Below, piece by piece: positions 29,350 to 61,285 of a stretch of DNA of 64,000 nt (position 1 is the stretch's first letter; every line of letters starts with the position of its first letter). The position numbers and the translations under genes were made by a program. The notes beneath the pieces were generated by a model. That model was not told where the DNA came from. It ran no database searches and worked only from the letters and a program-made list of their open reading frames with translations. The stretch is from an uncultured Chloroflexia bacterium (GTDB lineage: Bacteria > Chloroflexota > Anaerolineae > CG2-30-64-16): contig CAWEMM010000012.1 of assembly GCA_963810095.1 (NCBI GenBank), forward strand, positions 96,001-160,000, given 5' to 3'.

Positions 29350-29416
29350 AGCTTACTTGATGCAAGCCTGTGGCGTCTTTAGCGTACACTTACGGGGAAC
29401 TTAAGAGGCCATTAAG
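29350..29416 (-). promoter_or_regulatory. 11-bp-phased TTAAG array plus -10 box
   Basis: Hexamers (+ strand) tttagc 29378, cttacg 29389, cttaag 29400, attaag 29411; TAAGCT on the minus strand 22 bp downstream. Confidence 0.7.
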
Positions 29417-29443
29417 ACGTTACCCTATTCTTAGCAGCGGCGC

Positions 29444-31310
29444 CTACGCCTCCCGGTCCTGCGACAGGATGACGACAGCGTAAGGCCCCAGGCTGATTTC
29501 ACCGTAGAATGGCAGCCCGTCATACTCGCCCTCTTTGGCCTCCACGTCGAACACGTCCTGAAGCCCGAAATCAGGGTCGTAACCCTGCCAGTCGCTGTTG
29601 AACCGCACCCGCCACCAGCCAGCGGCCGGGAAGCCGATTTTGTACATCCCGCGCTGGGTATTTGCGAAGCTGGCGGCCACAACCACGCTGTCTCCGGGTC
29701 CGCCGTCCTTCCACCGGTGGAATGCGATCACGTTCTCCGTGTTGTTGACGTGGTGCACCTCGACGTTATAGCCGGTCAGCCCCTCGGTGTTGTTCTGCCA
29801 GTTCCGGCGCAGCTTGAAGAGGTCCGTGTACATCTGGAGAATGCCCTTGTGGTCCTCGAAGCGCGACCAGTCCAGCGGGTCCTGCTCGTGGAACCAGCGG
29901 TCCTCCAGCATCTCCTGGCCCTGGAAAATCATCGGCACACCGGGTGAGGTCACCACCAGCGCGGCTCCCAGGGTCGAACGCTTCTTCGGGTACCAGCTCT
30001 CGGCTTCGCCGGGCGAAATCTCCTCAGGCACGCGGGCCTTCCCATTTGCGTCCTCGTCGTGTGACTCCGTAAAGATGATGCGATCGAAGACGTCGTCGCC
30101 CAGCACTGCCTGGATTGCGCCCGCGACGACGTGCATGTCGCGGTGCTCGTCGGCCATGCCCACGATGGCGCCCCGGACGATGCCGACGAATTGGGGGTCC
30201 CATTGCGCGCTCGAAGCCACCGCCGCCGGCGCCCAAGTCCTTGGTCAGCCAGCCGTCGCCCTTCAGGTCTTCCGCGATGGTGAACTTCCACGGCTGTCGC
30301 GCCTGGATCTCCTCGTTGATCCACCGCAGGAAGCCCCACCCCTCGGGCAGCTCGCCGCCCTTGTCGCTGCGCGGGTCATTCCCGTGCACGTGGCGTATGA
30401 AAGCCGTCGCGTCGAAGCGGAGGCCGTCACAGTGGTACTCTTCCAGCCACATCAGCGCATTGTCGCGGAAGTACTGGCGCACCTCGCCGCGGTTGTAGTC
30501 GGGCCGCGTCTCGCCCCACGGCGTCTCCGCGCGCCAATCGTTGTAGAAATAAATCCCGCCCTTGCCGTTCTCGCTCCAGCCGTCGAACTGCCAAAGCGCG
30601 TTGTCGTTCGGACCGACATGGTTATAAACCACGTCCAGCAGCACCGCGATCCCTCGCTTGTGCGCCTCGTTTACGAACTGCTTGAGCGCCTGCGGCCCGC
30701 CATACGCGCCCTCGACTGCAAACGGATGGCCCGGGTTGTACCCCCACGAGAAGTCGCCGGGGAACTCCGTGGGCGGCATGACCTCGATGGCGTTAATGCC
30801 CAGCCCCGCGAGATAGTCCAGCTTTTCGAGCGCGGTCAGGAAGGTGCCCGGCTTCCCCTTCTCCTTGACGTGGAAGGTGCCGACATGCATCTCGTAGATC
30901 GCCAGTTCGTTCCACGCCGGCATTTTGAAGTCGCCGTCTTCCCAATCGAACGCCGGATCGACGATGACGCTGTTGCCGACCGAACTGGTCAGCGCGCGTG
31001 CGTAGGGATCGAGCCGCCACAGCTCGTTCTTGCCATTCAGAAGCCAGTAACGGTATTCCTGCCCCGGCCGAGCGCCAGGGACATCAGTCGACCAGAACCC
31101 GTTCCCCTCGTTCGCCAGGGGATTGGCTTTCGACGACCACTCGTTGAAGTCGCCCACCACGGACACCTTGTTGGCGTTAGGCGCCCAAACCCGAAACGAG
31201 ACGCAATCGTCATGGACGATCGCCCCCATGCCCGGCACGCTCGCGGGGTGCGTCGACTTCGCGGACGCCGCCCGAGACGGCGCCTGATCCTTCTTCCTCG
31301 TTGCTGCCAT
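29444..31310 (-). CDS. GH13 enzyme with CBM48 (glucan branching enzyme/TreZ-like; frameshift near 30215)
   Basis: FRVWAPNA, YEMHVGTF, SWGYNP, LDVVYNH, DGLRFD, TIAED, TESHDE, MIFQGQE. Confidence 0.88.
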
Positions 31311-31421
31311 GCCTTCCTCACACAACTTCAAAACATGCGGCGAATAATGCGGCGGGGCCTCCTGCCGCCTCCCGGGTGGGCGCGCACCCGCGAGGCGACC
31401 ACAGGCAACCCCTGGTCCGAG

Positions 31422-31513
31422 ATAGGACACCGATGCAACTGATTGAACTAATCGCACTGTCCTTCCGGAAAAGATCATGACAATCAGTCGAATCCGTTCA
31501 GTCCGTGTCCTAT
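31422..31513. repeat. 9-nt-periodic palindromic element (CTGAT/ATCAG type)
   Basis: Termini ataggacac...gtgtcctat; units at 31430/39/48/57 and 31474/83/92/501. Confidence 0.8.
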
Positions 31514-31558
31514 TGCAGCCCTCGTTGTCCAACAGCGCGTGGCGAGGGCCCAAGTACA

Positions 31559-31726
31559 AGCACACTCAATCTGTTGGGTCGCATCCTTCGACTGCGGCAC
31601 ACCAGCTGCGCTGGCGCCTCCGCTCAGGATGCTTCAAGCGCAGGCACCCTGAGCGGAGGGCGGTCCGCAGGAGCGCCCGCAGTCGAAGGGCGCCGAGCGC
31701 CATGATTCAACAGATTCGCTGTGGCT
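31559..31726. mobile_element. 168-bp MITE/REP-like branched palindrome, copy 1
   Basis: Highly similar to 56705-56872; imperfect terminal IR agcacactcaatctgttg...caacagattcgctgtggct; internal ccttcgactgcgg / ccgcagtcgaagg arms. Confidence 0.75.
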
Positions 31727-31757: not shown

Positions 31758-32081
31758 CTACTTCTTGCCCCGGCCGCCCCCATCGCCCGCGCCCTCACGC
31801 TGCACGAACTTGAAGAACCGGCTCTGCTCGCCGCTCTTGAGCGTGTCCTGGTAGAGGAACGCAAGGCCCGAGTCGTCGAACTTCTTGAAAAAGTCGTCCC
31901 ACTCGATGGGTTCGAGCCGGGCATCGCGATCGTCGGGGTTGGGCTCGTCGAAATCAATACGCAGGAGACCCGCGTCGTTCTTCCCGCCGGTGTCGCGTAC
32001 GCGCGCCGGGTGTCCCTGGCGCTCTTCGACCCAGCGACGAATTACCTCATGGTCCGTGGTTGTATCCGAACTGCCTGCCAT
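31758..32081 (-). CDS. Conserved hypothetical protein
   Basis: TTTDHEVIRRWVEERQGHPA..LRIDF..IEWDDFFKKFD..LAFLYQ; good RBS. Confidence 0.8.
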   Translation of the reverse strand: MAGSSDTTTDHEVIRRWVEERQGHPARVRDTGGKNDAGLLRIDFDEPNPDDRDARLEPIEWDDFFKKFDDSGLAFLYQDTLKSGEQSRFFKFVQREGAGDGGGRGKK

Positions 32082-32115: not shown

Positions 32116-32983
32116 CTACACGTTGACGACTTCGCCGCCGTTCGGGTGAATGACCTGGCCCGTGATGTACGATGCGTCCTCGGAGGCCAGGAAGAGAAAT
32201 GCCGGCGCCACCTCTTCCGGTTGGCCCGGCCGGCCGAGCGGCACGTCGGCCCCGAAAGACTTCACCTTCTCCTCCGGGAAAGTCGAAGGGATCAGGGGTG
32301 TCCAGATCGGTCCGGGTGCCACGGCGTTCACACGGATGCCCCGCTCGGCCAGGTTGATCGACAGCGAGCGCGTAAATGAAACGATGGCGCCCTTCGTCGA
32401 AGAGTAGTCGAGCAGCTGTGGGCTGCCGCGGTAGGCGGTCACGGATGTCGTGTTGACGATCGCGCCGCCTTTCTTCATGTGCGCCAGCGCCGCCTTGGTC
32501 AGGAAGAACATCCCAAAAATGTTGGTCCGGAAGGTGCGCTCGAGTTGCTGCGCGCTGATGTCCTCCAGGCGCTTCTGTGGGTGCTGTTCGGCCGCGTTGT
32601 TGATCAGGATGTCGAGCTTTCCGAACTCCTGCACCGTGCGCTGCACCAACTGCTGGCAGAAGTTCTCGTCGCCGATGTCCCCGGCATGGGCGAGGCAGCG
32701 GCGCCCCTCCGCCTCGACCAGGCGCTTTGTCTCCTGCGCGTCGCCGTGTTCGTTGAGGTAGGAGATGGCTACGTCCGCGCCTTCGCGGGCAAACAAGGCC
32801 GCGACTGCACGGCCGATCCCGCTGTCGCCGCCGGTCACCGAGCGCGACCTTCCCCTTGAGCCGGCCCGAGCCCGGCCGCTCCTCGCGGACTGCATCAGGC
32901 TTGGGCGTCATCTCGCTCTCTAAACCGGGGCGCTGGTCCTGCGTTTGCGCCGGCAGCGTCTGCTTCTGTTGTTCCTGGCTCAT
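32116..32983 (-). CDS. YhdF/YghA-like general-stress SDR (frameshift near 32842)
   Basis: N-terminal PAQTQDQRPGLESEMTPKP, TGGDSGIGRAVA, DYSSTKG, VAPGPIWTPLIP, HPNGG. Confidence 0.88.
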
Positions 32984-32992: not shown

Positions 32993-33361
32993 TCAGGGCA
33001 GGGGCGACGTCGTCGCGCCGGGCGGAACGATATCGCTGCTGTCCGAGTCCTGCTGGCCCGCGTGTAGCTTCTGGAGCAGGCGGGTCACGATCGTCCGGGA
33101 TTCAGCGTCTTCCGTATCGAAGCGGCCCGCGAGTGCGGTCACCGCGCCCTGCTGCCCGGCAACAGCCGCGTTATCGAAACGCGGGACGACGGGGAAAAGC
33201 CGGTCCTCCCCGCCCAGGTCCTCCAGGTCGGGGATTGAAATCTTGTGATCCCGCTTCAGGCGTTCCTGCACGCCGGTCCACACATCGCCCGGCGTCGCGC
33301 CTTCGATCACTGTGTTGTCGTTCGCGACACCCAGTTCCGCAATGGATACACGGTACGCCAT
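32993..33361 (-). CDS. Hypothetical protein
   Basis: GGAGG RBS; sits within the operon. Confidence 0.65.
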   Translation of the reverse strand: MAYRVSIAELGVANDNTVIEGATPGDVWTGVQERLKRDHKISIPDLEDLGGEDRLFPVVPRFDNAAVAGQQGAVTALAGRFDTEDAESRTIVTRLLQKLHAGQQDSDSSDIVPPGATTSPLP

Positions 33362-33400
33362 GATCAACCTCCTGCCTCGTCTCGAAATCGCCGGTTCCCT

Positions 33401-33988
33401 TTAGCGGTAGCCCGGCCGGCTTCCACTCGATTCGCCGCGGGTGCCGTCCGCATCGCGGCTCCCGCCGTGATCCTCGTAGCCCTCGCGCGCGTTGTCTTCA
33501 TCGTTGCCGTCTGCAGCCTGATTCCCCGGGCGGCCCTCTTTCGTCGACGGCTTGCCCGATCCGCTGCGAATGGGCCCGCTGTGGCCCTCGCCTTCCTTTT
33601 CCAGGCCCCCCGTCATCCCGCGCTGGCCGCTCACACCGGGCTCGCGCCCGCCCTTGGTGCTCCCCGATCCGGCGTCGTCGTCCTCACCCGTGCGGCCCTC
33701 GTCCCTGCTATTCTGGCCCTGTCCGCCGGCGTCGCCGACCAGGAGGCTGCCCGTGCCTTCGTTCTCCATCCCGCCCCCGGCCGTCCCCGAGCCGCCGCTG
33801 GAGCCCTCGCCGGTCTGCCCGACCCCGCGATCCTGCAGACCGCGCCCCTGGGAATCGTCACGGTCTTCGGCGCCGTCGCGGTTCTGCGTTTCGCCGCGGT
33901 CGCCGCGCATCAGTTCGTCTTCCGCCGTCCGCCGGGTTGTCAGGTCCTCTTCGGGGCGGTTGCGGTACTTGTCGCCTTGTGCACTCAC
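33401..33988 (-). CDS. Gly/Asp/Glu/Arg-rich hydrophilin-like disordered protein
   Basis: Almost no hydrophobic residues; AGGAGG RBS. Confidence 0.7.
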   Translation of the reverse strand: MSAQGDKYRNRPEEDLTTRRTAEDELMRGDRGETQNRDGAEDRDDSQGRGLQDRGVGQTGEGSSGGSGTAGGGMENEGTGSLLVGDAGGQGQNSRDEGRTGEDDDAGSGSTKGGREPGVSGQRGMTGGLEKEGEGHSGPIRSGSGKPSTKEGRPGNQAADGNDEDNAREGYEDHGGSRDADGTRGESSGSRPGYR

Positions 33989-34022: not shown

Positions 34023-34523
34023 TCACGCCTCGCTGAAGTAGCGCCGGCCGACCGAGAATCCGAGGGCCAGCAGCAGCAGGCTTGCTGCGGCTGCGAAGAC
34101 CCACGGCTTCTGGCGCACCCGCGCCCCGGCCTGAGCCCGCACCGTGCCCACCTGCTCGCCGAGCTTACCGGCTTGCAGCGCGACGCTGTCGCCGGCTTCG
34201 CCGGCCTTTTCCGAAGCTTTTTCGGCAGCTTCTGAGACCGCCGTCGTCAACTCTTCCGCTTTGGCCGCAGCCGCCGCAGTCACCGCGGCGAAGCGCTGCG
34301 CCGCCTTGTCGAGCATGCGCATCTGCTTCTGGTGCATCGCAGCTTCGGCCCGCCGGGCCGTCTCCGCGCCCTCGTCGATCCCGACCATCTTCTTCTCGTG
34401 CATCGACGCTTCGCTGACCTTGGCTTGCTCTGCGCCCTGGTCGATCGCTTTCATCTTCTTTTCGTGAGCCAGCGTCAGTTTTTCCTTCGCTTGCTCGATT
34501 CGCATCTCGGCCTTCTTCGCCAT
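34023..34523 (-). CDS. Ala/Lys/Glu-rich protein with ElaB/YqjD (DUF883)-like tail anchor
   Basis: Repeats of H(E/Q)KxM; C-terminal VRQKPW + TM helix + GRR. Confidence 0.75.
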   Translation of the reverse strand: MAKKAEMRIEQAKEKLTLAHEKKMKAIDQGAEQAKVSEASMHEKKMVGIDEGAETARRAEAAMHQKQMRMLDKAAQRFAAVTAAAAAKAEELTTAVSEAAEKASEKAGEAGDSVALQAGKLGEQVGTVRAQAGARVRQKPWVFAAAASLLLLALGFSVGRRYFSEA

Positions 34524-34603: not shown

Positions 34604-34670
34604 ACGATAACATGGCTCGTCTTAAGCTGACTTTAAGGTCGGCTACGCACTCGCTTAAGGCTTCCTCAAG
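34604..34670 (-). promoter_or_regulatory. 11-bp-phased TTAAG array plus -10 box
   Basis: cttaag 34621, tttaag 34632, (ctacgc 34643), cttaag 34654, ctcaag 34665; TGtTATCGT on the minus strand at 34609-34604. Confidence 0.7.
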
Positions 34671-34683: not shown

Positions 34684-35100
34684 TTAGTGCGCTCCGTTCT
34701 CCGGAACAAGCTCATACGCCTCGGGCGAATCAGGACCCCCGGGCACCTCGTCCGCGCCCAACTGCTTGAACTCGTCGGCCAGTGCCTTTAGTTCCTCTTC
34801 CGGTCGTTCTTCGAGGTTGACCATATCGGTGCGCGCCTCCGACACCGCCCGGATCAGTTCGTCGATCTTCAGGTGCAGCGCCTTGGAGTCCCGGTTCTGC
34901 GACGCCTGGATGATAAAGACCATCAGAAATGTCACGACGCTCGTGCCGGTGTTGATCACCAGCTGCCACGTGTCTGAGAAGTGGAACAGCGGGCCGGTGA
35001 TGAGCCACACGACGAGCACGCCAATTGCCGCTATGAACGCCCAGGGCGAACCGACGACGTCTGCGGCCCGGCGTGAGAACTTACGAAAGTACTCGTTCAC
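34684..35100 (-). CDS. Low-affinity iron permease (Fet4-like) family membrane protein
   Basis: GSPWAF, FSDTWQLVINTGT, FIIQASQNRD, LKIDELI. Confidence 0.85.
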   Translation of the reverse strand: MNEYFRKFSRRAADVVGSPWAFIAAIGVLVVWLITGPLFHFSDTWQLVINTGTSVVTFLMVFIIQASQNRDSKALHLKIDELIRAVSEARTDMVNLEERPEEELKALADEFKQLGADEVPGGPDSPEAYELVPENGAH

Positions 35101-36388
35101 CCTCGGCCTCTTCCACCTGATCGAACGGCGGCACGGTATCAGCCCGAAGCTGGGGCGCGTACTCGTAGCGCTCCGCGGGCGGCGTTCGTGCCGGGCGTGC
35201 ACGACCTGTGCTCGCGTTATCGGGCTTGGCCTGGAAGACCAGGCCGGCGAGTCCCACGCCCAGCATCGTGATCGCCTTCGGGATGAGCCGCAGCGCCAAC
35301 CCAAGCGGCGTGGCGGGGATGCGCTCGGAGCCGAGTTGATTTGCGTTGGCCTCTGCAGGCTCACGCAGCCTGTCGACGAGGCCGGCCTGGAGCTGCAGGA
35401 TGCCGCGCTCCACCAGCAACTTCTCGCGGAACAGCACGTCCCATTCCTCGTGCTGCACCTCCGCCGAACGGAGGTCGCGCTCGATGGTTTTCAGCCGCTG
35501 AACCAGGTCGGAATTGGCGTTCGCCGGCGTACGCTTCTTGGCATCTTTCCAGAGCGCGCGCAGCCGGTCCTCCAGCTCGTTGGCCTCTTTCGTCCACGTC
35601 AGGTACGCCTTGGAGAAAGACAGCTGCTCGACGACGATCGCGCGGGCGTGCGCTGCATCGTACTTCCGGCCGCTGATCGCCAGGTCCGACGGGTAGAGGA
35701 TCAGTTCGAGCTTGTTCGAGCGCAGCGTCGTGAGCTGGTCGGCAACCAGGTTGGACTGACCCTGGCCCGCCACTACGGTTAGCACCTTGATCGGCAGCCG
35801 CATCAGGATACTCGCCTGCGTCCGCGTGACCGGCAGGTCCGCTTTGTCGAGCGCCCGCTCGATCTCGCTCACCATCGAGAGGTAATCCGGCTCTTCGACT
35901 ACAATGGGCAGATGCTCGGTGGTCCAGCGCTTGGCCAGCGTCCGCACCTTAAGGAGCGGAACAAACACCACCATCATGAGCAGGGCCAGCGAGGTCGCGA
36001 CCGTGTACGGGTAACCGTGCAGGATGCGCTGGAAGATCGCCTTGCCGCCCTTCGGCTGGTCTTCCTTGGCGGTCACCTTTGTCGCCAGGAAACCCATTAT
36101 CGCCGGCAGAACCAATGCGATGGCCAGCATAGCCAGTCGAATCCACCAATCCTGCACGAAGGATGGCAGCTTGACGAAGCTGAGCAGAAACACCCCAACC
36201 TTTGGGACGATAACGCCAAACACCACGACAATCCAGATGACCGACCCAAACGCGATCACCGACAGGAGTGTCTGCCGCTCCTGCGGCACCTTACCGAACA
36301 GGGTCGTCGTGGCCCAGCTAAAGATCGTATTCAACAGCCGCCCGACCTGCCGGCCGAGGGCTGCGAAAAGCGCCTGAAGAATCGCCAT
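35081..36388 (-). CDS. Hypothetical membrane protein
   Basis: Several N-terminal TM helices; in operon context. Confidence 0.75.
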   Translation of the reverse strand: MAILQALFAALGRQVGRLLNTIFSWATTTLFGKVPQERQTLLSVIAFGSVIWIVVVFGVIVPKVGVFLLSFVKLPSFVQDWWIRLAMLAIALVLPAIMGFLATKVTAKEDQPKGGKAIFQRILHGYPYTVATSLALLMMVVFVPLLKVRTLAKRWTTEHLPIVVEEPDYLSMVSEIERALDKADLPVTRTQASILMRLPIKVLTVVAGQGQSNLVADQLTTLRSNKLELILYPSDLAISGRKYDAAHARAIVVEQLSFSKAYLTWTKEANELEDRLRALWKDAKKRTPANANSDLVQRLKTIERDLRSAEVQHEEWDVLFREKLLVERGILQLQAGLVDRLREPAEANANQLGSERIPATPLGLALRLIPKAITMLGVGLAGLVFQAKPDNASTGRARPARTPPAERYEYAPQLRADTVPPFDQVEEAEGERVLS

Positions 36389-36443
36389 AATTGTCTCTCC
36401 CCCGCGCCCCTCCGCCTGTGGCTGCAGGAGGAGGGGCCAGGAA

Positions 36444-37916
36444 TTACGCGCGCACCATGGAGCGCCGGTAGCGCCACCACGAGAACACAAACAACACCAA
36501 GCCCATCACACCCAGCGCCACCAGGAAGATCCACGGCGGCGGCACGCCCTTCAGCATCACGTTCTGCAAGCTGATGATGCCGTAGGTGACCGGTAGCAGG
36601 TACCCGATGTAGCGAACCGGTACCAGAATCTGCATCAGCGGAAACACGAACCCGCTGAAGAACATGGACGCCAACAGGACCAGCATCGAAGCCTGGACGG
36701 CCTGACTGTCGGTGCCCGATGTGGCCGAGATGGCAAAGCCGTATCCCAGCGACGCAAAGATCAGCAGCAGCAGCGAAGCGACGAGCCAGGCCACCGTGCC
36801 CAAAAGCGGCACGCCGAGGATGTAGATCGCCGACGCGGTCAGGATGGCCGCCAGGACGCCGACGAACAGCAGGTACGAGCCATACTTCCCCAGCATGATC
36901 TCGAACGCGGTGATCGGCGCCACCCGGAACAACTCGAGCGCACCGAACACCTTCTCACGCACCAGGGCGAGCGACGCGATGCTGATCGCCACGTGCTGCA
37001 AGATCAAGGCCAGCACGCCCGGCGCATAGAAAATCACGAATGCGGGCGTGAACGGTGCGATGCTCTTCGTCACGGTAGTCAGCGGCGACACCATCACGTC
37101 GGGCGGCACATTCTCAAAGTCCGCCAATTGTTTGTCCATGCGATCCAGGTCGCTGCTCACCGCCTGAGCCCGGGTATCGACCGAAGACTGGTCGTTCGCC
37201 CCCGCGGGCGCAGCGGCCGGGCTTTGAACCGGGCCTGCACCCAAGCCCTGACCCATACCGCCCATGATCAGCGCCGTCGCACCCAGCAGCGCAGTGGCCT
37301 GGTCCAGCGAGCTATTGGCCCGCGCCAGTTCCTCCTGCGCACGGGCATTATCGCCGGCAGCCGCGGCCGAACGAGCGCTGTCGGCCGCCGACCGCGCCTG
37401 GGCCAGGTTACCCTTGGCGTCGCCGCTCTGCTGCTTGGCCTCGGCCGCAAACTGCATCAGGATGCGGCGGTTAATCTCGGCCACGTAGACGCGGCCGAGC
37501 TGGTCCACGTACGCCGCCTGCGTCGGGTCGATCTCGTTGTGATACAGCTCGAGGGTCGCCTGCGAGCCATTCTTGACCGTCTGGTACGCATGTGGCGGAT
37601 AGACCACGACCAGGTCAACCTGGCCGATGCGCAGCCGCTGCAGGGCCTCGTCCTTGCTGACCGTCTGGCCCATGTACTGGAGCTGCGGCCCAAGGTCGGT
37701 CGCGTACTGCTCCACCTGCGGCGCGACTTGCGGCTCGTCCGCGGGAACCACGAAGAGCGCGCGCATCACCCGGGCCTGGTTGTTGAAGCCCAGCCCAACG
37801 AGCAGCAGGATCAGGAACGGGCCGAGAATCAGCCGGACAACCAGCCAGGGTTGGCGCAGGATCTCGCGGATTTCCTTGCCGAGAAATGAAGAGACTCGGA
37901 CGATCGGCTTAAGCAC
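36444..37916 (-). CDS. ABC-2 type permease with large extracytoplasmic domain
   Basis: KEIREILR, FYAPGV, LVREK..GALE, FFSG, LLPVTY. Confidence 0.88.
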   Translation of the reverse strand: MLKPIVRVSSFLGKEIREILRQPWLVVRLILGPFLILLLVGLGFNNQARVMRALFVVPADEPQVAPQVEQYATDLGPQLQYMGQTVSKDEALQRLRIGQVDLVVVYPPHAYQTVKNGSQATLELYHNEIDPTQAAYVDQLGRVYVAEINRRILMQFAAEAKQQSGDAKGNLAQARSAADSARSAAAAGDNARAQEELARANSSLDQATALLGATALIMGGMGQGLGAGPVQSPAAAPAGANDQSSVDTRAQAVSSDLDRMDKQLADFENVPPDVMVSPLTTVTKSIAPFTPAFVIFYAPGVLALILQHVAISIASLALVREKVFGALELFRVAPITAFEIMLGKYGSYLLFVGVLAAILTASAIYILGVPLLGTVAWLVASLLLLIFASLGYGFAISATSGTDSQAVQASMLVLLASMFFSGFVFPLMQILVPVRYIGYLLPVTYGIISLQNVMLKGVPPPWIFLVALGVMGLVLFVFSWWRYRRSMVRA

Positions 37917-40758: not shown

Positions 40759-40834
40759 TGGCTCCATCCCTTTGCGTTTGAGTAGACCCTCTTTCGGGAC
40801 CTGTCTGGCGCTTGGCCGCACCAGCGATTCTTGC

Positions 40835-40900
40835 ACTCTAAATGTAGCCCGCGCATACGTCTTTACGGCCATCTCATACCGACCTTAAGGTGGGCTTAAA
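40835..40900 (-). promoter_or_regulatory. 11-bp-phased TTAAG array plus -10 box
   Basis: tttacg 40862, ctcata 40873, cttaag 40884, cttaaa 40895; TAGAGT on the minus strand 21 bp downstream. Confidence 0.6.
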
Positions 40901-40964
40901 GACCGATGTGGTTCGAGGGGCCGCAAGCTATAATGACAGGGTGCAAGAATGGACGGATACAGGC

Positions 40965-42865
40965 ATGAGGGAAGCGGTCGAAGTGGGAAATAAGACTCGC
41001 AAGCAGTTGCTCGAAGAGCTTGCCGCGGCGCAGAGCCGCCTTAACGAACTCGAGGCGTTCGAGGATACCCCGAATCGCGTCGAGAACCGGGCCCCCGGGG
41101 GAGAGAGCCACTTTGCGCACCTCTTCCGTGACGCCCGGGTGGCCAACCTGCTGTTTGATCCACTCGGCAACCTGGTGTCTGCAAACGCGGGCAACGGTAT
41201 GCTGAGCGCGGGCGAATACCAGCGGGCCGTCCGCGAAAGTCTGTTCGAGAGCGCCGCCTGGACGCCGGAGATACGCAGCCGGCTGGCAAACGGGGAGGTG
41301 CTGCGGTTGCGCATCACCGTCGATCTGGGCGGGGGTCAGAACGGCGATCTGCAGGGTCGAACCGCCCCGAAAGGCGTGGCGCACCTCGAATCCACCGTGT
41401 CTTCGCTGGGCATGCAAGGCTACCTGGTGCAGGTACAAGACATCACGCAGGAGGTCGAGTCGAAGGCTGCGCTGCGCGAGCGCGAGACGTTCTTCCGCTC
41501 GGTCTTCCAGGCCATCCCTTCCCCGACAATCGTGTGGCGCCACGCCGGCAACAACCACTTCGTCCTGCACTTCTACAACACGTCGGCCAACCTTGCGACG
41601 GACGCGCATCTCGGCGAGTACGAAGGCGCGGACTTGGACCGCTTTTACGCACACGAGCCGGAGTTTGCGGCGCGTGTCCGCCGCACGTTCGAGACCGGGC
41701 GAAGCGGTGACCGTCGAGCAGGAGTACGTCTTCCGGACCACCGGCAAGAAACGCTACATCCGCGTTACCAGCGCTAAAGTCGGCCGGGAGTACGTGATCG
41801 ACTCGGTCACGGACCTGACCGAGCTCAAGGAGACCCAGGAGGCTCTCGTCGAGAACGAAGCGCGCTTCCGGCGCTTGCTCGACAACGCACCGGATATCGT
41901 GTATCGCATTGCCCTGCAGCCCGAACCGCACTACGAGTACATCAGTCCGGCCGCCGAGGCCGTGACAGGCTTCACCCCAGATGAGCTGATGTCGGACCTC
42001 ACCCTGGCCGGCGAGCGGGTCTATCCGGAGGACCGCCGGGAACCGCCGCCGAACGTGGAGGCGCTGCCTCCGGTGGGTGCGCCACAGCTGTTTCGCTGGA
42101 TCCGCAAGGACGGGCAGGTCGTCTGGCTCGAGCACCGCTACGTTGTGGTGTATGAGGACGGCGTGCCGGTGGCGCTGGAGGGGATCGGCCGGGAGGTGAG
42201 CGCCGAGGTCGAGGCCCGCCGTGTGCTCGAGCGGTCGCTGACCGAGAAGCAACTCCTGCTCCAGGAAGTCCACCACCGGGTGAAAAACAACTTAAGCATC
42301 CTGAGCAGCCTGATCGAGCTGCAGGCTGCCACACTGACCGAGCCGAAGCTGCGGGAGATCCTGCGCGACACGCAAGGGCGCATCCTGTCGGTGGCGCGTG
42401 TCCACGAGGCGCTGTACAGCTCGGGCGACAGCACGACACACATCGACCTTGCGGAATACGTGAGCCGGCTCGGCGCAGAGCTGCGCGATGCGTACGGCGG
42501 GCAAGGCACGGAGATAGACTACGAGATGGTGCACTACGCGCTGTCGCAGCAGCGGGCCATCCACTTTGGCCTCCTGGTCAACGAGCTGATCTCGAATGCG
42601 CTGAAGCATGCCTTCCCCGCCGAGCGTACCCGCCCGGCCCGCGTCGAGGTCTGCATGCGGGAGGTCGATGACCGGTTGAGCTTGGTCGTGCAGGACAACG
42701 GCGTGGGATTGCCAGACATCCTTCGACCCTCGCGCGACCGGCTCGCTGGGCGTGCAGGTGATCGACATGCTCGTGGACCAGATGGATGGCAAGGTCGAGT
42801 ACGTCTCGCGGCCGGGCGCGGGCACCGAGGTTCGGGTCCTCATTCCAAAGTCGCAGCTGAACTAA
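40965..42865 (+). CDS. PAS sensor kinase, HisKA_2/HWE-like (frameshifts near 41700 and 42725)
   Basis: LLQEVHHRVKNNL, NELISNALKH, DNGVGL, then GSLGVQVI in a shifted frame. Confidence 0.85.
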
Positions 42866-42991
42866 CCGGTGCCAAAAATGCCCTGGGCTCACCTGCGACC
42901 CTTCGCAGGTGAGCCCAGGGCGTTCTCCGTACTTTGCTGCGCACCTGTGCGCTGGCACGGCACAGGTGCGTGACTGGATCTGCCTGTTCAA

Positions 42992-43284: not shown

Positions 43285-43384
43285 ATCATAGCCTCTCGTG
43301 TGACAAAAGGTCTTTAACCGGCACTAAAACCGACCTTAAGGCGAGCTTAAGGCCGGTCTGATCTGTAAGGTAGACAAGATTAAG
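43285..43384. promoter_or_regulatory. 11-bp-phased TTAAG array between divergent chaB and the OmpR-type regulator
   Basis: tttaac 43313, ctaaaa 43324, cttaag 43335, cttaag 43346, in-phase attaag 43379; TATGAT on the minus strand 22 bp from the array. Confidence 0.72.
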
Positions 43385-43450
43385 CAAACACGGAAGATGC
43401 TATCCTGGAACTATACGCGCACCAGTCAGTTTGGAGCAGAGACGAAAGAC

Positions 43451-44194
43451 ATGAGCACGCATTTGATTGTGGTCGACGATGAAGCCCTTCTACGGCGCAG
43501 CCTGGTCTATAATCTGGAGCAGGCGGGCTATCGAGTCAGTTCGGCGAGCCGGGCAGAGGACGCCCTTGCGCTCGCGCGGCGCGATCCACCCGACCTGGTC
43601 CTCCTCGACATCGGTCTGCCTGGCATGGACGGGCTGCAGGCCCTGCGGGTTTTCCGCCAGGAAGTGGGCTGCCCCGTGATTTTCGTGACCGCCCGGCGTC
43701 GCGAGTTGGACGAGCAGCTGGGGCTGGAGCTGGGGGCCGACGACTATGTGACGAAGCCCTTTGATTTTGGCGTACTGCTTGCCCGTGTCAAGGCCGTGCT
43801 GCGCCGGGGCCAGCTGAGCCGGCCGGCCGGCCAGAGCGCAGACGCCCCGAGCAACCCGACGCTGCGCGTGGGCGACCTGTCGATTAATCCCTCCGCAGTC
43901 GAAGTGATGCTGAAGGATCGCTCGCTCCAGCTGTCACCCCGTGAGTTTGACCTGCTCCACGTGCTGGCACTCAATGCGGGCAAGGTGCTGTCGGTCGAGG
44001 ACATCCTGGCGCAAGTCTGGGGCGCAGAGTACCTGGGTGAACCGCAGGTCGTCTACGTGCACATCCGGTGGCTGCGCGAAAAAATCGAGGATGAGCCCAG
44101 CCGGCCAACCCGCGTTCTCACCGTACGCGGCAAGGGGTATAAGCTCGTCGATCCCCAGGAAGAGGCGATTGTTACCACTCCTGCGAATCCTTAA
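43451..44194 (+). CDS. OmpR/PhoB-family response regulator
   Basis: VVDDE, LLDIGLPGMDG, GADDYVTKPF; winged helix LSPREFDLL..VYVHIRWLREKIE..TVRGKGY. Confidence 0.95.
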   Translation: MSTHLIVVDDEALLRRSLVYNLEQAGYRVSSASRAEDALALARRDPPDLVLLDIGLPGMDGLQALRVFRQEVGCPVIFVTARRRELDEQLGLELGADDYVTKPFDFGVLLARVKAVLRRGQLSRPAGQSADAPSNPTLRVGDLSINPSAVEVMLKDRSLQLSPREFDLLHVLALNAGKVLSVEDILAQVWGAEYLGEPQVVYVHIRWLREKIEDEPSRPTRVLTVRGKGYKLVDPQEEAIVTTPANP

Positions 44195-44256
44195 GCTAGG
44201 CTTAAAGTCACTGACAACTCGCGTTAAGGCCCGGCAGACCCGCCCAGGCGTATGAT
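44190..44256 (+). promoter_or_regulatory. 11-bp-phased TTAAG array plus -10 box
   Basis: cttaag 44190, cttaaa 44201, (tgacaa 44212), gttaag 44223; TATGAT at 44251, 22 bp downstream. Confidence 0.72.
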
Positions 44257-44289: not shown

Positions 44290-45180
44290 ATGAATCTGAC
44301 GACGCATAGGTATGCCGGAGTGAGCCAGCCACAACAGAAAGAGATCAGCGAGGAGTTGCTGACCCGCCTCATCCACAGGATGGCGCGAAGCACCGGTGCG
44401 TTCCGATCGACCGCACAAGCGCTTCTTAATGGGGCCGACGAGGACCCCGTGCTTCGCCGCGAACTCCTTCACGATATGGAGTTCGAGCTCGGCGAGCTGC
44501 AGCGAATGCTGGAGAACGTGACGCAGTTCAAGGCGCTAGAAAAAGGTACCTTCGTTCTGAGCCGGCGCGAGGTGCTGACTGCAGCGTGGCTGCGGCAGCT
44601 TGTGGGTCGCTGGCAGCGTGCGGTGCCCGACAAAGCCCTCGCCTGGATCGTCGAAATACCCGACAATTTGCCGGTCTTCCGCGTCGACGTCGACAAGCTC
44701 GAGCAGGCCTTGGGCAACCTGCTGGGCAATGCCGTAAAGCACACGCTGCCGGGTGCACCGGTCGCATTCAGGGCATGGTCGAGCGGCGGCAACCTCAGGC
44801 TTCGTATTGCGAGCGGCCGGCCGCGACTGGTGGACGAGGAATATGATCGCCTGTCCGAGTTGTTCTACACCGGTGGAGTGCAGGGCCGCTTCCCCACGGG
44901 CGTCGGCCTAGGTCTGTATGTCACCCGGCAGCTGATCGAAAAGCACGGCGGCCTGCTCGTCGTGACTCGCCCGACGGTCGAAGACGATGCCATCGGATTT
45001 GAGGTAAGCGTCCCGGCTGCGTTCGACGGCAACGGGTACAACGGGCTGGGTAGGCCGGAAGACGGCGCGCAAAGCACCCGCACCCCGAGCAACGGCTCGC
45101 AAAGCGACGACGAACAAAACACGATCATCGAGCGCGATTTCGGCGGCCAGAGCGAACGGCAGCATACCAAAACGTCATAA
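44290..45180 (+). CDS. Sensor-less degenerate histidine kinase-like protein
   Basis: N box EQALGNLLGNAVKH and G2 GVGLGL present; H-box aberrant (LIHRMARST); G1 DxGxG replaced by ASGRP. Confidence 0.75.
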   Translation: MNLTTHRYAGVSQPQQKEISEELLTRLIHRMARSTGAFRSTAQALLNGADEDPVLRRELLHDMEFELGELQRMLENVTQFKALEKGTFVLSRREVLTAAWLRQLVGRWQRAVPDKALAWIVEIPDNLPVFRVDVDKLEQALGNLLGNAVKHTLPGAPVAFRAWSSGGNLRLRIASGRPRLVDEEYDRLSELFYTGGVQGRFPTGVGLGLYVTRQLIEKHGGLLVVTRPTVEDDAIGFEVSVPAAFDGNGYNGLGRPEDGAQSTRTPSNGSQSDDEQNTIIERDFGGQSERQHTKTS

Positions 45181-45658: not shown

Positions 45659-45725
45659 CTCATATCACCCCACGTCCCCACCGGTCCTTAAGCGGACTTC
45701 AAGCGCCGTTCAAGGCCGCGTTAAG
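45659..45725 (-). promoter_or_regulatory. 11-bp-phased TTAAG array plus -10 box
   Basis: cttaag 45687, ttcaag 45698, ttcaag 45709, gttaag 45720; TGaTATGAG on the minus strand 22 bp downstream. Confidence 0.72.
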
Positions 45726-49287: not shown

Positions 49288-49556
49288 CTCTGTCTCCACC
49301 CAACACAATAATCTCGGCTGCCTGCTCCCGTACCCCCCGGCTAACCATCTCGAAGCATGTTAACACAACAACGACGCCCCGTCATCGGCCCGGCGACTGT
49401 ACATCAACAAGACTTGCGTCCCGCTTCCTTAACGGATTTGTAGTCCTTATGACGTATTGACGAATGAGCCGGCATAAGATACCAATATGCGTATGTTTCC
49501 TATCATAGGCGTTTTGTCTCCCCTTCATTATATGCACGATATGCACGAGGATTCAG

Positions 49557-55085: not shown

Positions 55086-55091
55086 GGCAGT

Positions 55092-55754
55092 ATGTCGGAA
55101 GGTGAAACCATTCGAATCCTGATCGCGGATGACCATGCGATCGTGCGCGAGGGGCTGCGTGCGCTTATCGAGACCGAGCCCGGCATGGAACTTGTCGGCG
55201 AGGCCCAGGACGGCATCGAAGCCGTTCGCAAGCATCAGGCCCTCCACCCGGATGTCACCCTCCTTGACCTGGTGATGCCGCGCCAGGACGGGCTTGCCGC
55301 ACTGACCGAGATCCGGCAGAAGGAGCCCCAGGCCCGCATCCTCGTCCTTACCAGCTTTGCCGAGGACGAGCGGGTCTTCCCCGCGATTATGGCCGGCGCG
55401 CTGGGCTACCTCCTCAAAGACGCGACGCCCCAGGAACTGCTGAAGGCGATCCGGGACGTAGCCCGCGGCGAGGCGTCCTTGCACCCGGCCATTGCCCGCC
55501 GCGTCATCAAAGAACTGCACCGGCCGCAAGAATCCGGGCCGACGGTCGAGCCGCTGACTGAACGCGAGACGCAGGTGCTGAGCCTGGTGGCGCAGGGCCT
55601 GTCCAACCAGGAAATCGCGACGAAGCTGGTCATCAGCGAACGCACGGTGCGCACCCACGTCAGCAACATTCTGGGCAAGCTGCACCTGGCGAACCGCACG
55701 CAGGCCGCCCGGTACGCGCTCCGCGAGGGCCTGGCCAAACTCGACGGCGACTGA
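55092..55754 (+). CDS. NarL/LiaR-family response regulator
   Basis: ILIADDH, LLDLVMP, GYLLKD, LTERE..SERTVRTHVSNIL. Confidence 0.95.
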   Translation: MSEGETIRILIADDHAIVREGLRALIETEPGMELVGEAQDGIEAVRKHQALHPDVTLLDLVMPRQDGLAALTEIRQKEPQARILVLTSFAEDERVFPAIMAGALGYLLKDATPQELLKAIRDVARGEASLHPAIARRVIKELHRPQESGPTVEPLTERETQVLSLVAQGLSNQEIATKLVISERTVRTHVSNILGKLHLANRTQAARYALREGLAKLDGD

Positions 55755-60374: not shown

Positions 60375-60424
60375 GGCCCGGGATTTCGCACACACCCCGG
60401 CTGTGCCAAGGGGCACAGGATGGA

Positions 60425-60490
60425 CTTAAGCACGAGTTAAGCTTCTCTACAGGAGGGGTTAAGGACCCTCTCAGAATAGCGTGATAAGCT
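60425..60490 (+). promoter_or_regulatory. 11-bp-phased TTAAG array plus -10 box
   Basis: cttaag 60425, gttaag 60436, (ctacag 60447), gttaag 60458; TGaTAAGCT at 60485, 21 bp downstream. Confidence 0.72.
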
Positions 60491-60667
60491 GTTGCCATCA
60501 GTTACAGAAACACAGACGACGGCGACACGGTGCGGCAGGCGGTAAGCGGAAGATGTAGGGCGGCGGAACTGCTGCATCATCACGAATGACGGCGACCGGG
60601 TCGCCGATGTGAGCGGACAGCCCGGATAGCAAGGGTCCGCTCACTATGAGTTTAACGGAGGTTTTCC

Positions 60668-61213
60668 GTGGATTACCAAACGCATGCGAGCTCCCAGCCC
60701 GACGATTCTCAGGCCGATCAGCAGCACATTCAGGATTTAGTGAAGGTCTTCATGAAGGGCAGCGGCCGTGAGCGGCAGGCTGCGCGCGAGCAGTTGTGTG
60801 AGATCGGCCACCCGGCGGTTCCGGCGCTTGTCGATGCACTTAACAATCCCGAAGACCAGGTCCGCTGGGAGGCCGCCAAGTCTCTCACGCAGATTCCCGA
60901 TCCCCGCGCCGCGCCGGCGCTGGTCGAGGCGATGAAGGACTCATTCAGCATCCGCTGGCTCGCCAGCGAGGCCCTGATCAATATCGGAGAGCCGGCGCTG
61001 GTGCCGCTCATTCGCGGGCTCCTTGCGAATCCGGATGCGCCCCGGCTGCGCGAGGGCGCGCATCACGTGCTCACCGGCCTTCGCCGCACCCACCCGAACA
61101 ATCCGTATATTACCGAAATGCTGAGCGCGCTGACGGGCCAGGCGCAGACCGAAACGGTGCCGTGGGTCGCGCGCGACATCCTGCAGAAGATGGGCCTTGT
61201 CGCTCCCATCTAA
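60668..61213 (+). CDS. HEAT/PBS-lyase repeat protein
   Basis: IGHPAVPALVDAL..VRWEAAKSL and IRWLASEAL..IGEPALVPL repeats; GGAGG RBS. Confidence 0.85.
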   Translation: MDYQTHASSQPDDSQADQQHIQDLVKVFMKGSGRERQAAREQLCEIGHPAVPALVDALNNPEDQVRWEAAKSLTQIPDPRAAPALVEAMKDSFSIRWLASEALINIGEPALVPLIRGLLANPDAPRLREGAHHVLTGLRRTHPNNPYITEMLSALTGQAQTETVPWVARDILQKMGLVAPI

Positions 61214-61285
61214 GCGGCACTTAATGAAGGCTTAATGTCCTCTTGATCCCCTTGTAAGGCAAGCCGGGCCGCGCTAGTGTATCAT
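61209..61285 (+). promoter_or_regulatory. 11-bp-phased TTAAG array plus -10 box
   Basis: tctaag 61209, cttaat 61220, cttaat 61231, cttgat 61242, tgtaag 61253; TATCAT at 61280, 21 bp downstream. Confidence 0.68.

What the first reader, a model, noticed from the sequence alone, without database searches (positions are those of the whole stretch)
29350..61285. Hidden regulon: eight promoters share an 11-bp-phased (NTTAAG-N5)x4-5 array with a fixed distance to the -10 box
Seen in sequence: eight intergenic regions carry 4-5 TTAAG-like hexamers starting exactly 11 bp apart, at 29378/89/400/411; 34621/32/43/54/65; 40862/73/84/95; 43313/24/35/46 (plus 43379); 44190/201/212/223; 45687/98/709/720; 60425/36/47/58; 61209/20/31/42/53. 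Toward the downstream gene, a TAnnnT-like -10 box follows 21-22 bp after the last hexamer in seven cases (TAAGCT, TAGAGT, TATGAT, TATGAT, TATGAG, TAAGCT, TATCAT). At 34.6 kb it is 11 bp from the last hexamer, i.e. 22 bp from the penultimate one. Established: helical-turn tandem repeats overlapping the -35 are the OmpR/PhoB binding mode, and NTTAAG-N5-TTTAAG is the streptococcal CiaR box. Inference: this is an apparently undescribed activator regulon in a probable Chloroflexota genome. The OmpR-type regulator at 43451-44194 is flanked on both sides by arrays and is the obvious candidate. Targets are stress and envelope genes: small protein-DHH-ECF sigma, ElaB-like/hydrophilin/YhdF operon, SDR-M48-ABC operon, chaB, pseudo-kinase, glsB/yeaQ, HEAT protein, doxX.
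Basis: partly seen in the sequence, partly recalled or inferred. Interest (0 to 1): 0.88.

Follow-up and report, generated by a model that had tools for sequence, protein, structure and literature searches.

The report
Phased TTAAG activator sites, eight stress promoters
Eight promoters in a 32-kb stretch of a probable Chloroflexota genome carry the same four-unit, 11-bp-phased CTTAAG array at a fixed distance from a -10 box, which looks like a compact stress regulon switched on by an OmpR-type response regulator; this is a familiar mechanism in a little-studied phylum.

Summary
All eight arrays sit at the stated coordinates. With CTTAAG scored over four units at period 11, 14 positions reach 17 or more of 24, all inside the eight arrays. 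Periods 6-10 and 12-16 give none, and 200 dinucleotide shuffles never exceed 17.

Read in the direction of transcription, every promoter has the same anatomy:
- units 1 and 2 are CTTAAG;
- unit 3 is degenerate;
- unit 4 is nnTAA(A/G) followed by GAC;
- a TAnnnT-like -10 follows 21-22 bp later;
- no -35 candidate matches better than 3 of 6.

All eight face a gene.

The best reading is two dimers of an OmpR/PhoB-family regulator activating primary-sigma promoters. The regulator at 43451-44194 is the leading candidate but is unproven. It belongs to a large subfamily with a distinctive recognition helix. One distant member (L028) sits beside an identically built array in front of an HtrA-like protease. 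Three other members show no array nearby.

The box itself (NTTAAG-N5-NTTAAG) is already known for PmrA, CiaR and HP1043. I rate it a new member of a known kind, of moderate interest.

The parts
29350..29416 (-). Promoter A. Units read CTTAAT, CTTAAG, CGTAAG, GCTAAA, then 22 bp, then TAAGCT. It faces a 52-aa membrane protein (29016-29174), a DHH protein (27760-28983) and an ECF sigma (27096-27743).
   Evidence: Pfam. A 16-bp-stem hairpin at 29341-29377 overlaps the spacer and the -10.
34604..34670 (-). Promoter B. Units read CTTGAG, CTTAAG, GCGTAG, CTTAAA, plus an extra CTTAAG in the spacer. TATCGT lies 22 bp after unit 4. It faces 34023-34523 (coiled-coil protein with a C-terminal membrane anchor), 33401-33988 (highly hydrophilic G/D/E/R-rich protein), 32993-33367, an SDR at 32116-32895 and 31758-32081. 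The transcript may run on into the GlgB-like gene at 29444-31565.
   Evidence: Pfam. Atlas leads only.
40835..40900 (-). Promoter C. Units read TTTAAG, CTTAAG, TATGAG, CGTAAA, then 21 bp, then TAGAGT. It faces an SDR (about 40767 to 39981, frameshifted), an M48 peptidase (39007-39840), an ABC ATPase (37909-38988), an ABC-2 permease (36444-38018), 35081-36490 and an iron permease (34684-35364). All are on the - strand.
43285..43351 (-). Promoter D. Units read CTTAAG, CTTAAG, TTTTAG, GTTAAA, then 22 bp, then TATGAT. It faces the ChaB-family gene (the likely start is ATG 43249, end 42992). Its two strong units lie 49 bp upstream of a TATCCT (43401-43406) in front of the divergent regulator gene.
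43451..44194 (+). OmpR/PhoB-family response regulator, 247 aa. The receiver domain keeps the usual acidic pocket, D, T and K. The winged-helix domain carries the recognition helix PQVVYVHIRWLREKI. This is the candidate binder of the arrays.
   Evidence: Pfam. Translation. Homologs. NCBIfam: below the cut-off of every named equivalog.
44190..44256 (+). Promoter E. Units read CTTAAG, CTTAAA, TGACAA, GTTAAG, then 22 bp, then TATGAT. It faces 44290-45180. The regulator's TAA stop codon lies inside unit 1.
44290..45180 (+). Kinase-like protein of 296 aa with no sensor domain. It has an HATPase_c domain. By eye, the H-box is degenerate (IHRMARST) and the G1 box is degenerate (ASGRP). It may be a feedback component of the system.
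   Evidence: Pfam (HATPase_c only). NCBIfam (aligns to the C-terminal halves of WalK, CreC and PhoR, all far below cut-off). Translation.
40890..42912 (+). PAS-PAS-HisKA_2 histidine kinase, read here as two overlapping ORFs (40890-41777 and 41593-42912) that join through a one-base frameshift near 41700. It is divergent from promoter C. It is a candidate sensor for the regulator.
   Evidence: Pfam. NCBIfam (best match PhyK, 94.6 bits against a cut-off of 750, so not a member). Three-frame reading.
45659..45725 (-). Promoter F. Units read CTTAAC, CTTGAA, CTTGAA, CTTAAG, then 22 bp, then TATGAG. It faces the Transgly_assoc (GlsB/YeaQ-type) membrane protein (the likely start is ATG 45593, end 45309). 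Unit 1 overlaps the stop codon of the NarL-type regulator gene at 45721-46422.
60425..60490 (+). Promoter G. Units read CTTAAG, GTTAAG, CTACAG, GTTAAG, then 21 bp, then TAAGCT with TG before it. It faces the HEAT-repeat protein at 60668-61213 across a leader of about 170 nt.
   Evidence: No Rfam family matches the leader.
61209..61285 (+). Promoter H. An extra TCTAAG is followed by CTTAAT, CTTAAT, CTTGAT, TGTAAG, then 21 bp, then TATCAT. It faces DoxX (61372-62001) and possibly the M1 peptidase (62010-63869).

Best explanation
The eight arrays are tandem binding sites for an OmpR/PhoB-family winged-helix response regulator. That regulator activates primary-sigma-type promoters that lack a usable -35.

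**Proposed geometry** (positions assume a start site about 7 nt after the -10):
- Each site holds two head-to-tail dimers.
- A high-affinity dimer sits on units 1 and 2 (CTTAAG-N5-CTTAAG, about -73 to -57).
- A second dimer is recruited cooperatively to units 3 and 4. Only unit 4 (TAA(A/G)GAC, about -40 to -32) is conserved there.
- Unit 4 abuts the -35 position, and its trailing GAC supplies a partial -35 spaced 17-18 bp from the -10.
- The proximal dimer would contact RNA polymerase.

**Most likely regulator.** This is the one encoded at 43451-44194, between arrays D and E. Its input would come from the adjacent PAS-PAS-HisKA_2 kinase (40890-42912). The kinase-like gene behind promoter E could provide feedback.

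**Output.** About eight transcription units and roughly 20-25 genes of a stress and envelope kind:
- a hydrophilic LEA-like protein and a membrane-anchored coiled-coil protein;
- two SDRs;
- an M48 protease with an ABC-2 exporter;
- ChaB, a GlsB/YeaQ-type protein, DoxX and a HEAT protein;
- a DHH protein;
- an ECF sigma factor, which would extend the response.

**Shown:** the sequence anatomy, its significance, the orientation, the gene content, and one conserved example in another genome.

**Inferred:** protein binding, which protein binds, dimer stoichiometry, activation, start sites and the signal.
For: 1. **Phasing.** Period-11 phasing is exclusive and far beyond chance.
2. **Shared anatomy in the direction of transcription**:
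   - TT and AA of units 1 and 2 are kept in 7-8 of 8.
   - In unit 3 only one A is kept, in 8 of 8.
   - In unit 4, TAA is kept in 8 of 8, followed by G 8/8, A 5/8 and C 7/8.
   - Unit 2 is followed by g-T(6/8)-C(5/8). The downstream half of each pair therefore carries an asymmetric extension, which fits head-to-tail dimers.
3. **Core promoter.** The -10 lies 21-22 bp after unit 4 in 8 of 8 and matches TATAAT at 3-5 of 6. The best -35 candidate at 16-18 bp spacing is 3 of 6 or less in 8 of 8.
4. **Orientation.** All 8 arrays face a gene on the right strand, with plausible leaders.
5. **Not duplicates.** The promoters are alike only at the motif positions.
6. **Known binding mode.** NTTAAG-N5-NTTAAG is a proven binding site of three OmpR-family regulators. 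I saw passages of PMC3973317 (PmrA), PMC3091779 (CiaR) and PMC5253667 (HP1043).
7. **Candidate regulator.**
   - It is the only OmpR-type regulator found among the genes scanned in the window.
   - Arrays C, D, E and F all lie within about 3 kb of it.
   - 118 of its 120 best homologs share the helix G(E/Q)xQxxYVH(I/V)RWLR.
   - In L028 a subfamily member (57% identical) is followed by a kinase gene. Then comes CTTAAG-N5-CTTAAG-N5-GAAAAG-N5-TTTAAAGAC, then 21 bp, then TATCTT, in front of an HtrA-like protease.
Against: - No binding, expression or start-site data exist.
- Of 4 fetched loci with a same-helix regulator, only L028 has an array. L001 (67% identical, 20.7 kb), L002 (6.9 kb) and L003 (4.6 kb) have none scoring 16 or more over four units, and none scoring 10 or more of 12 over two units. 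In L001 the regulator is followed by the same HtrA-like gene, but the spacer is a hairpin, not an array.
- The recognition helix is not that of the known TTAAG binders. Against E. coli BasR it reads TNTLEVHIHNLR versus PQVVYVHIRWLR. Against CiaR it reads VVEVYVSKVRKKL (PMC3091779). Sequence therefore does not predict the specificity.
- Phased TTAA-type arrays also lie near unrelated regulators that are 43% identical (L010, L014). Adjacency alone is weak evidence.
- The regulator's own promoter does not have the canonical geometry.
- HisKA_2 kinases are not the usual partners of OmpR-type regulators (recalled, not tested).
- At promoter A the spacer and -10 lie inside a terminator-like hairpin.
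Confidence: 0.6

Rival explanations
1. The mechanism is the same, but the owner is different. The arrays would be bound by another winged-helix activator encoded outside the window. Candidates are a paralog of the same QVVYVHIRWLR subfamily (for example the HtrA-linked copy seen in L001 and L028), another OmpR-type regulator, or a SARP- or ToxR-like protein.
For: - Only 64 kb of the genome is visible.
- The subfamily is large and shares one helix, so paralogs could not be told apart by sequence.
- The closest fetched relatives lack arrays nearby.
- Arrays of similar type occur next to other regulators (L010, L014).
Against: - The 43451 gene lies between two arrays, and four arrays lie within about 3 kb of it.
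- It is the only OmpR-type regulator among the window genes scanned.
- L028 links this subfamily to an identically built array.
Confidence: 0.25
2. The arrays are operators, and the bound regulator represses or acts both ways. Occupying unit 4, and the extra spacer unit at promoter B, would block RNA polymerase.
For: - Unit 4 adjoins the -35 position.
- At promoter B a fifth CTTAAG sits between the -35 and -10 positions.
- OmpR-family proteins can repress from such positions (general knowledge).
Against: - No promoter has a -35 better than 3 of 6. They should therefore be weak without help.
- The best-conserved units lie far upstream (-73 to -57), where a repressor would not be needed.
- The same box activates in the CiaR and PmrA systems (PMC3091779, PMC3973317).
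Confidence: 0.08
3. Unit 4 plus GAC is the -35 element of an alternative sigma factor (the ECF sigma at 27096-27743 or a sigma-B-like factor). The upstream units would be an UP-like enhancer.
For: - The gene set resembles general-stress regulons.
- GTTAAA/GTTAAG resembles the sigma-B -35 GTTTAA (recalled).
- An ECF sigma gene lies in operon A.
Against: - The conserved downstream element is TAnnnT, which is primary-sigma-like. It lies 21-22 bp away, not the 12-14 bp followed by GGGTAT of sigma-B (recalled) nor an ECF-type -10.
- Units 1 and 2 are the best-conserved part and lie beyond any sigma contact.
Confidence: 0.05
4. It is chance, or remnants of a repeated or mobile element with no regulatory role.
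For: None found.
Against: - The shuffles and other-period controls argue against chance.
- There is no similarity outside the motif positions.
- Orientation and distance to the -10 are fixed in 8 of 8.
- The same anatomy appears in a 48%-GC genome (L028).
Confidence: 0.01

Closest known systems
PmrA (BasR) box of enterobacteria
   Same: The hexamer and spacing are the same: CTTAAG-N5-NTTAAT, bound head-to-tail by a phosphorylated OmpR-family dimer that activates envelope genes (passages of PMC3973317).
   Different: - The PmrA box is one dimer site, not four phased units.
- The regulator here is only 36% identical to E. coli BasR and scores 133 bits against a cut-off of 330 on the PmrA model.
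- The recognition helices differ at the positions the paper names as base-specific (His195 aligns with Arg, Asn196 with Trp).
CiaR box of streptococci (CiaRH regulon, includes htrA by recall)
   Same: - The box is NTTAAG-N5-TTTAAG, a direct repeat at a fixed distance from a -10, and it activates (PMC3091779).
- A relative of the regulator here sits next to an array-driven HtrA-like gene (L028). This recalls CiaR control of htrA (recalled, not seen in the passages).
   Different: - The CiaR repeat ends 10 bp before the -10. Here unit 4 ends 21-22 bp before it and units 1-2 end 43-44 bp before it. Only promoter B has a pair ending 11 bp before the -10.
- The CiaR helix VVEVYVSKVRKKL is not the helix found here.
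- The phylum differs.
HP1043 (HsrA) of Helicobacter pylori
   Same: TTTAAG-N5-TTTAAG, with one strong and one weaker hexamer, centres 11 bp apart (PMC5253667).
   Different: HP1043 is an orphan, phosphorylation-independent regulator with a single dimer site as a rule. The receiver domain here looks canonical.
PhoB/PhoP-type multi-box promoters (pho boxes; B. subtilis PhoP four-repeat sites)
   Same: Several 11-bp-phased direct repeats bind two or more dimers. They replace the -35, with cooperative filling of weaker proximal units (general knowledge, recalled).
   Different: - The half-site sequence differs.
- No phosphate genes are among the targets or elsewhere in the window.
- The regulator is below the PhoB cut-offs.
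WalR/YycF
   Same: It is the closest characterised relative by sequence: the best NCBIfam match, and 46% identity to annotated walR/yycF genes.
   Different: - It scores 212 bits against a cut-off of 340, so it is not an equivalog.
- The WalR box TGTWAH-N5-TGTWAH (recalled) is not what the arrays show.

Membership tests
OmpR/PhoB-family response-regulator tandem binding site | Direct repeats of a 6-7 bp half-site with centres one helical turn (10-11 bp) apart | tested here: met
   Period 11 only. There are 14 positions scoring 17 or more at period 11 and none at periods 6-10 or 12-16. CTTAAG is itself palindromic. The direct orientation rests on the asymmetric G(T/A)C extension after units 2 and 4.
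OmpR/PhoB-family response-regulator tandem binding site | The promoter-proximal unit adjoins or replaces a poor -35, at a fixed distance from the -10 | tested here: met
   The spacing is 21-22 bp in 8 of 8. The best -35 candidate is 3 of 6 or less in 8 of 8. Start sites are not mapped, so positions are inferred.
OmpR/PhoB-family response-regulator tandem binding site | Bound by a phosphorylated winged-helix regulator dimer | not testable with these tools
   No protein-DNA tool was available. Only adjacency in the window and the L028 example bear on this.
CiaR regulon (streptococci) | NTTAAG-N5-TTTAAG repeat | tested here: met
   Units 1-2 match with 0-1 mismatch per hexamer in 7 of 8 arrays. 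Array F has 1 and 2 mismatches.
CiaR regulon (streptococci) | The repeat ends 10 bp upstream of the -10 | tested here: not met
   Unit 4 ends 21-22 bp upstream in 8 of 8. Only promoter B has an extra unit ending 11 bp upstream. The 10 bp figure is from PMC3091779.
CiaR regulon (streptococci) | The regulator carries the CiaR recognition helix VVEVYVSKVRKKL | tested here: not met
   The window regulator has VVYVHIRWLREKI, against Table 1 of PMC3091779.
PmrA/BasR regulon | CTTAAG-N5-NTTAAT box | tested here: met
   Units 1-2 of arrays A, D, E, G and H fit with 0-1 mismatch. The box definition is from PMC3973317.
PmrA/BasR regulon | The regulator is a PmrA equivalog | tested here: not met
   NCBIfam PmrA model: 133 bits against a cut-off of 330. 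Identity to E. coli BasR is 36%.
WalR/YycF | The regulator reaches the equivalog cut-off | tested here: not met
   212.3 bits against a cut-off of 340.
Pho regulon (PhoB/SphR type) | The regulator is a PhoB equivalog and the targets are phosphate-acquisition genes | tested here: not met
   The PhoB models give 179, 163 and 143 bits against cut-offs of 296, 270 and 471. No pst, pho or phn genes are among the window genes scanned.
Sigma-B-type general stress promoter | GTTTAA, then 12-14 bp, then GGGTAT (consensus recalled) | tested here: not met
   By eye in the alignment there is no GGGTAT-like element 12-14 bp after unit 4. The conserved element is TAnnnT at 21-22 bp.

The most novel reading that the evidence does not exclude
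Chloroflexota of this lineage may run a general-stress or desiccation-type response through a two-component system rather than an alternative sigma factor. A PAS-HisKA_2 kinase would feed an OmpR-type regulator of the widespread 'QVVYVHIRWLR' subfamily. That subfamily would read CTTAAG half-sites as two cooperating dimers. Across the phylum it would control protein-quality-control and stress genes (HtrA in L028; M48 protease, LEA-like, SDR, GlsB, ChaB and DoxX genes and an ECF sigma here). This would be a functional analogue of the sigma-B and EcfG responses, and a deep relative of the CiaRH-HtrA logic.
Probability: 0.3. Interest if true: 0.6.

Novelty: new member of a known kind. Interest (0 to 1): 0.45.

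Why it matters
Almost nothing is known about transcriptional control in Chloroflexota, most of which are uncultured.

This finding offers:
- a regulon that can be read straight from sequence;
- a precise promoter grammar (four phased units, a fixed 21-22 bp to the -10, no -35);
- a named candidate regulator subfamily.

Together these give a testable entry point:
- a PWM to scan genomes;
- predicted start sites;
- a protein to purify.

If the subfamily-to-motif link holds, stress regulons could be predicted in the many genomes and metagenomes that encode subfamily members. 118 of the best 120 homologs listed carry the helix.

The mechanism itself would not surprise a specialist.

Tried and rejected
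- **Cross-genome footprinting.** It returned only four close relatives of the regulator (57-67% identical). The other 76 loci are 39-47% paralogs. The 81-91% relatives seen were not fetched, so conservation of arrays C-F in true orthologous loci stayed unchecked. The taxon is therefore only 'probable Chloroflexota'.\n- **Plasmid search.** A tblastn of the regulator against the plasmid collection found only WalR/YycF-type and other regulators at 47% identity or less, and no Chloroflexota replicon.\n- **Recognition-helix comparison.** Comparison with BasR and with the CiaR helix from PMC3091779 neither supports nor excludes TTAAG specificity.\n- **Named regulator families.** NCBIfam placed the regulator below the cut-off of every named equivalog.\n- **RNA families.** Rfam at gathering thresholds gave 0 matches in the window. 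The 170-nt leader of promoter G is therefore unexplained.\n- **Unknown target proteins.** Atlas searches gave only leads: LEA/DUF883/CsbD-like at 0.85-0.88, and a small 'branching enzyme family' protein at 0.93.\n- **Readings considered and rejected:**\n - the sigma-B/ECF promoter reading and the NarL-type regulators of the window (a 6-bp palindrome is too short for such dimers, and the phasing fits winged-helix tandem binding);\n - the recent-duplication reading.\n- **Literature.** Searches listed no paper describing this motif or regulon in Chloroflexota. Only the top rows of each listing were seen, and subscription journals are not covered.

Full report
**1. The observation**

- TTAAG is rare: 32 occurrences on the + strand, and 26 of CTTAA. 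Every one of the 17 same-strand pairs lying 60 bp or less apart is spaced 11, 22, 33 or 44 bp.
- I summed matches to CTTAAG over four units at a given period. At period 11, 14 positions reach 17 or more of 24, and all fall in the eight reported arrays. At each of periods 6-10 and 12-16, no position does.
- In 200 dinucleotide-preserving shuffles of the window the maximum averaged 14.7 and never exceeded 17, against an observed 20. Positions scoring 15 or more averaged 0.97, against an observed 25.
- No array lies in the first 29 kb.
- Of the 34 listed hexamers, 19 match NTTAAG exactly on one strand or the other. Ten have one mismatch. Five have 2-4 mismatches: four of these are the third unit and one is array A's unit 4.

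**2. Anatomy**

I oriented each array toward the gene it faces: A, B, C, D and F on the - strand, and E, G and H on the + strand. The eight then align without gaps.

- Units 1 and 2 are C-T-T-A-A-G. TT is kept in 8/8 and AA in 7-8/8.
- Unit 3 keeps only one A (8/8) and a G (5/8).
- Unit 4 is nnTAA(A/G) (TAA in 8/8), followed by G (8/8), A (5/8) and C (7/8).
- Unit 2 is followed by g-T(6/8)-C(5/8).

The second member of each pair therefore carries an asymmetric extension, TTAAG-G(T/A)C. This gives the otherwise palindromic hexamer a direction and suggests two pairs, 1+2 and 3+4.

A -10-like hexamer follows 21 or 22 bp after unit 4 in all eight. It matches TATAAT at 3-5 of 6 and has TG before it in B, F and G. 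No -35 candidate at 16-18 bp spacing exceeds 3 of 6. The best ones are the nnGACn formed by the end of unit 4 plus GAC.

TAnnnT occurs at 0.00275 per position in the window. The relaxed pattern nnTAA(A/G)-N21-22-TAnnnT occurs 9 times on both strands, and 7 of these are arrays.

Array B has an extra CTTAAG inside the spacer, 11 bp before the -10. Arrays B and H have an extra upstream unit.

Outside the motif positions the promoters are no more alike than composition predicts, 29.1% against 27.7%. They are kept by selection on the motif, not by recent copying.

**3. Genes**

I used a GC3-based gene call, Pfam and NCBIfam. The transcription units are:

| Promoter | Genes it faces |
|---|---|
| A | 52-aa membrane protein, DHH protein, ECF sigma |
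| B | membrane-anchored coiled-coil protein, very hydrophilic G/D/E/R-rich protein, an unknown, an SDR, a small protein; possibly the GlgB-like gene |
| C | SDR, M48 peptidase, ABC ATPase, ABC-2 permease, an unknown, a low-affinity iron permease |
| D | ChaB |
| E | kinase-like protein with only an HATPase_c domain |
| F | Transgly_assoc (GlsB/YeaQ-type) protein |
| G | HEAT-repeat protein |
| H | DoxX, perhaps an M1 peptidase |

- 'ElaB-like' and 'hydrophilin' rest on composition and on weak Atlas leads.
- Likely true starts for chaB (ATG 43249) and the GlsB-type gene (ATG 45593) leave short leaders after the predicted start sites.

**4. The regulator**

- The gene at 43451-44194 encodes a canonical OmpR-family regulator. 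It is the only one of that type found among the window genes scanned.
- It lies between arrays D and E. A PAS-PAS-HisKA_2 kinase lies upstream; it is read as two ORFs but joins across a one-base frameshift. The kinase-like gene lies downstream.
- It reaches no named NCBIfam equivalog. The best is YycF, at 212 bits against a cut-off of 340. Its closest annotated relatives in the plasmid collection are walR/yycF genes at about 46%.
- It has many homologs at 65-91% identity, and the named ones are from Anaerolineae. Of the best 120, 118 share the helix G(E/Q)xQxxYVH(I/V)RWLR. This differs from the common RTVDVH type.

**5. Other genomes**

It returned only four close relatives: L001 at 67%, L002 and L003 at 58%, and L028 at 57%. 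The other 76 loci are paralogs at 39-47%.

Scanning all 80 loci, 4 have positions scoring 17 or more at period 11:
- **L028.** The array sits right after the regulator-kinase pair and before an HtrA-like protease. It has the full anatomy: CTTAAG-N5-CTTAAG-N5-GAAAAG-N5-TTTAAAGAC, then 21 bp, then TATCTT. This is in a 48%-GC genome.
- **L010.** An unclassified MAG with a 43% regulator. The array lies before an ABC ATPase.
- **L014.** A Caldilineaceae MAG with a 43% regulator and TTAAC-type arrays.
- **L006.** Enterococcus, with one borderline hit.

L001, L002 and L003 have none, even with a two-unit test. In L001 the regulator is followed by the same kind of HtrA-like gene, but the spacer holds a hairpin.

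The link between the subfamily and the motif therefore rests on 1 of 4 relatives plus the window itself.

**6. What is known**

- PmrA boxes are CTTAAG-N5-NTTAAT, bound head-to-tail (passages of PMC3973317).
- The CiaR box is NTTAAG-N5-TTTAAG, placed 10 bp before the -10. The CiaR helix is VVEVYVSKVRKKL (passages of PMC3091779).
- HP1043 binds TTTAAG-N5-TTTAAG (passages of PMC5253667).
- A C. difficile regulator paper (PMC6222199) and a B. anthracis one (PMC4938410) also turned up, in search listings only.

The half-site and spacing are therefore a known specificity class reached by regulators with different helices. The alignment with E. coli BasR (36% identity) shows that sequence does not predict it.

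Searches listed nothing on such a regulon in Chloroflexota.

**7. Mechanism and verdict**

The most likely mechanism is activation of primary-sigma promoters by two cooperating dimers. One is a strong distal site on units 1-2. The other is a weak proximal site whose unit 4 abuts the -35.

I put about 0.85 on a winged-helix tandem-binding regulator of this kind. I put about 0.6 on the whole statement, including the 43451 protein as the binder.

Rivals are another regulator with the same mode, repression, an alternative sigma, or chance. The last is excluded by the controls.

It is a new member of a known kind. It is a clean, testable regulon in a poorly studied phylum, but not a new principle.

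Noticed in passing
window 14049-16533; 25759-27037; 29444-31565; 39981-40767; 40890-42912: Several genes are split into overlapping or adjacent ORFs. They are a GH38 alpha-mannosidase in three pieces, acetate kinase in two, the GlgB-like enzyme in two, the SDR of operon C (its N-terminus is in another frame) and the PAS-HisKA_2 kinase. This points to indel errors in the assembly or to many pseudogenes.
   Followed up: partly
window 29341-29377 (- strand): A 16-bp-stem hairpin followed by a T-containing tail covers the spacer and the -10 of promoter A, just after the GlgB-like gene's stop. It looks like a terminator overlapping a promoter, or possibly an operator.
   Followed up: partly
window 44192-44194; 45721-45723; 61211-61213: The TAA stop codons of three upstream genes (the OmpR-type regulator, the NarL-type regulator and the HEAT protein) lie inside TTAA cores of array units. 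The arrays are packed into very short intergenic gaps.
   Followed up: no
L001 10001-12459 and L028 10001-13927: Regulators of the same recognition-helix subfamily are linked to an HtrA-like protease (Trypsin_2 plus PDZ, 552-553 aa) in two distant Chloroflexota. Only L028 has the array. L001 has a long hairpin in the spacer.
   Followed up: partly
L014 5689-5745 and 6278-6340; L010 13612-13660: Other 11-bp-phased TTAA-type arrays lie near regulators only 43% identical to the one here. L014 (Caldilineaceae) has TTAAC/TTAAA units. In L010 the units are CTTAAT, CTTAAT, GTTAAG, then 22 bp, then TACGAT, before an ABC ATPase.
   Followed up: partly
L028 9792-9891: A masked run of N lies just upstream of the regulator gene, and a CTTAAG follows it directly. 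Whether an array lies there could not be seen.
   Followed up: no
window 46346-55754: There is a dense signalling cluster: a PAS/GAF HisKA_3 kinase (828 aa), a lone receiver, a 1842-aa kinase with at least eight PAS domains, and two NarL-type regulators. No array lies in front of them. A plain nnTAAG-N22-TATCAT promoter-like site lies at 49473.
   Followed up: no
window 60497-60667: Promoter G is followed by a leader of about 170 nt before the HEAT-protein gene. No Rfam family matches it at gathering thresholds.
   Followed up: partly
window 43379-43406 and 40929-40934: The regulator gene and the kinase gene have their own -10-like boxes: TATCCT 16 bp after an ATTAAG, and a perfect TATAAT 28 bp after the last C unit. 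Both are out of the canonical geometry. The strong palindromic units of C and D might serve both divergent promoters.
   Followed up: no
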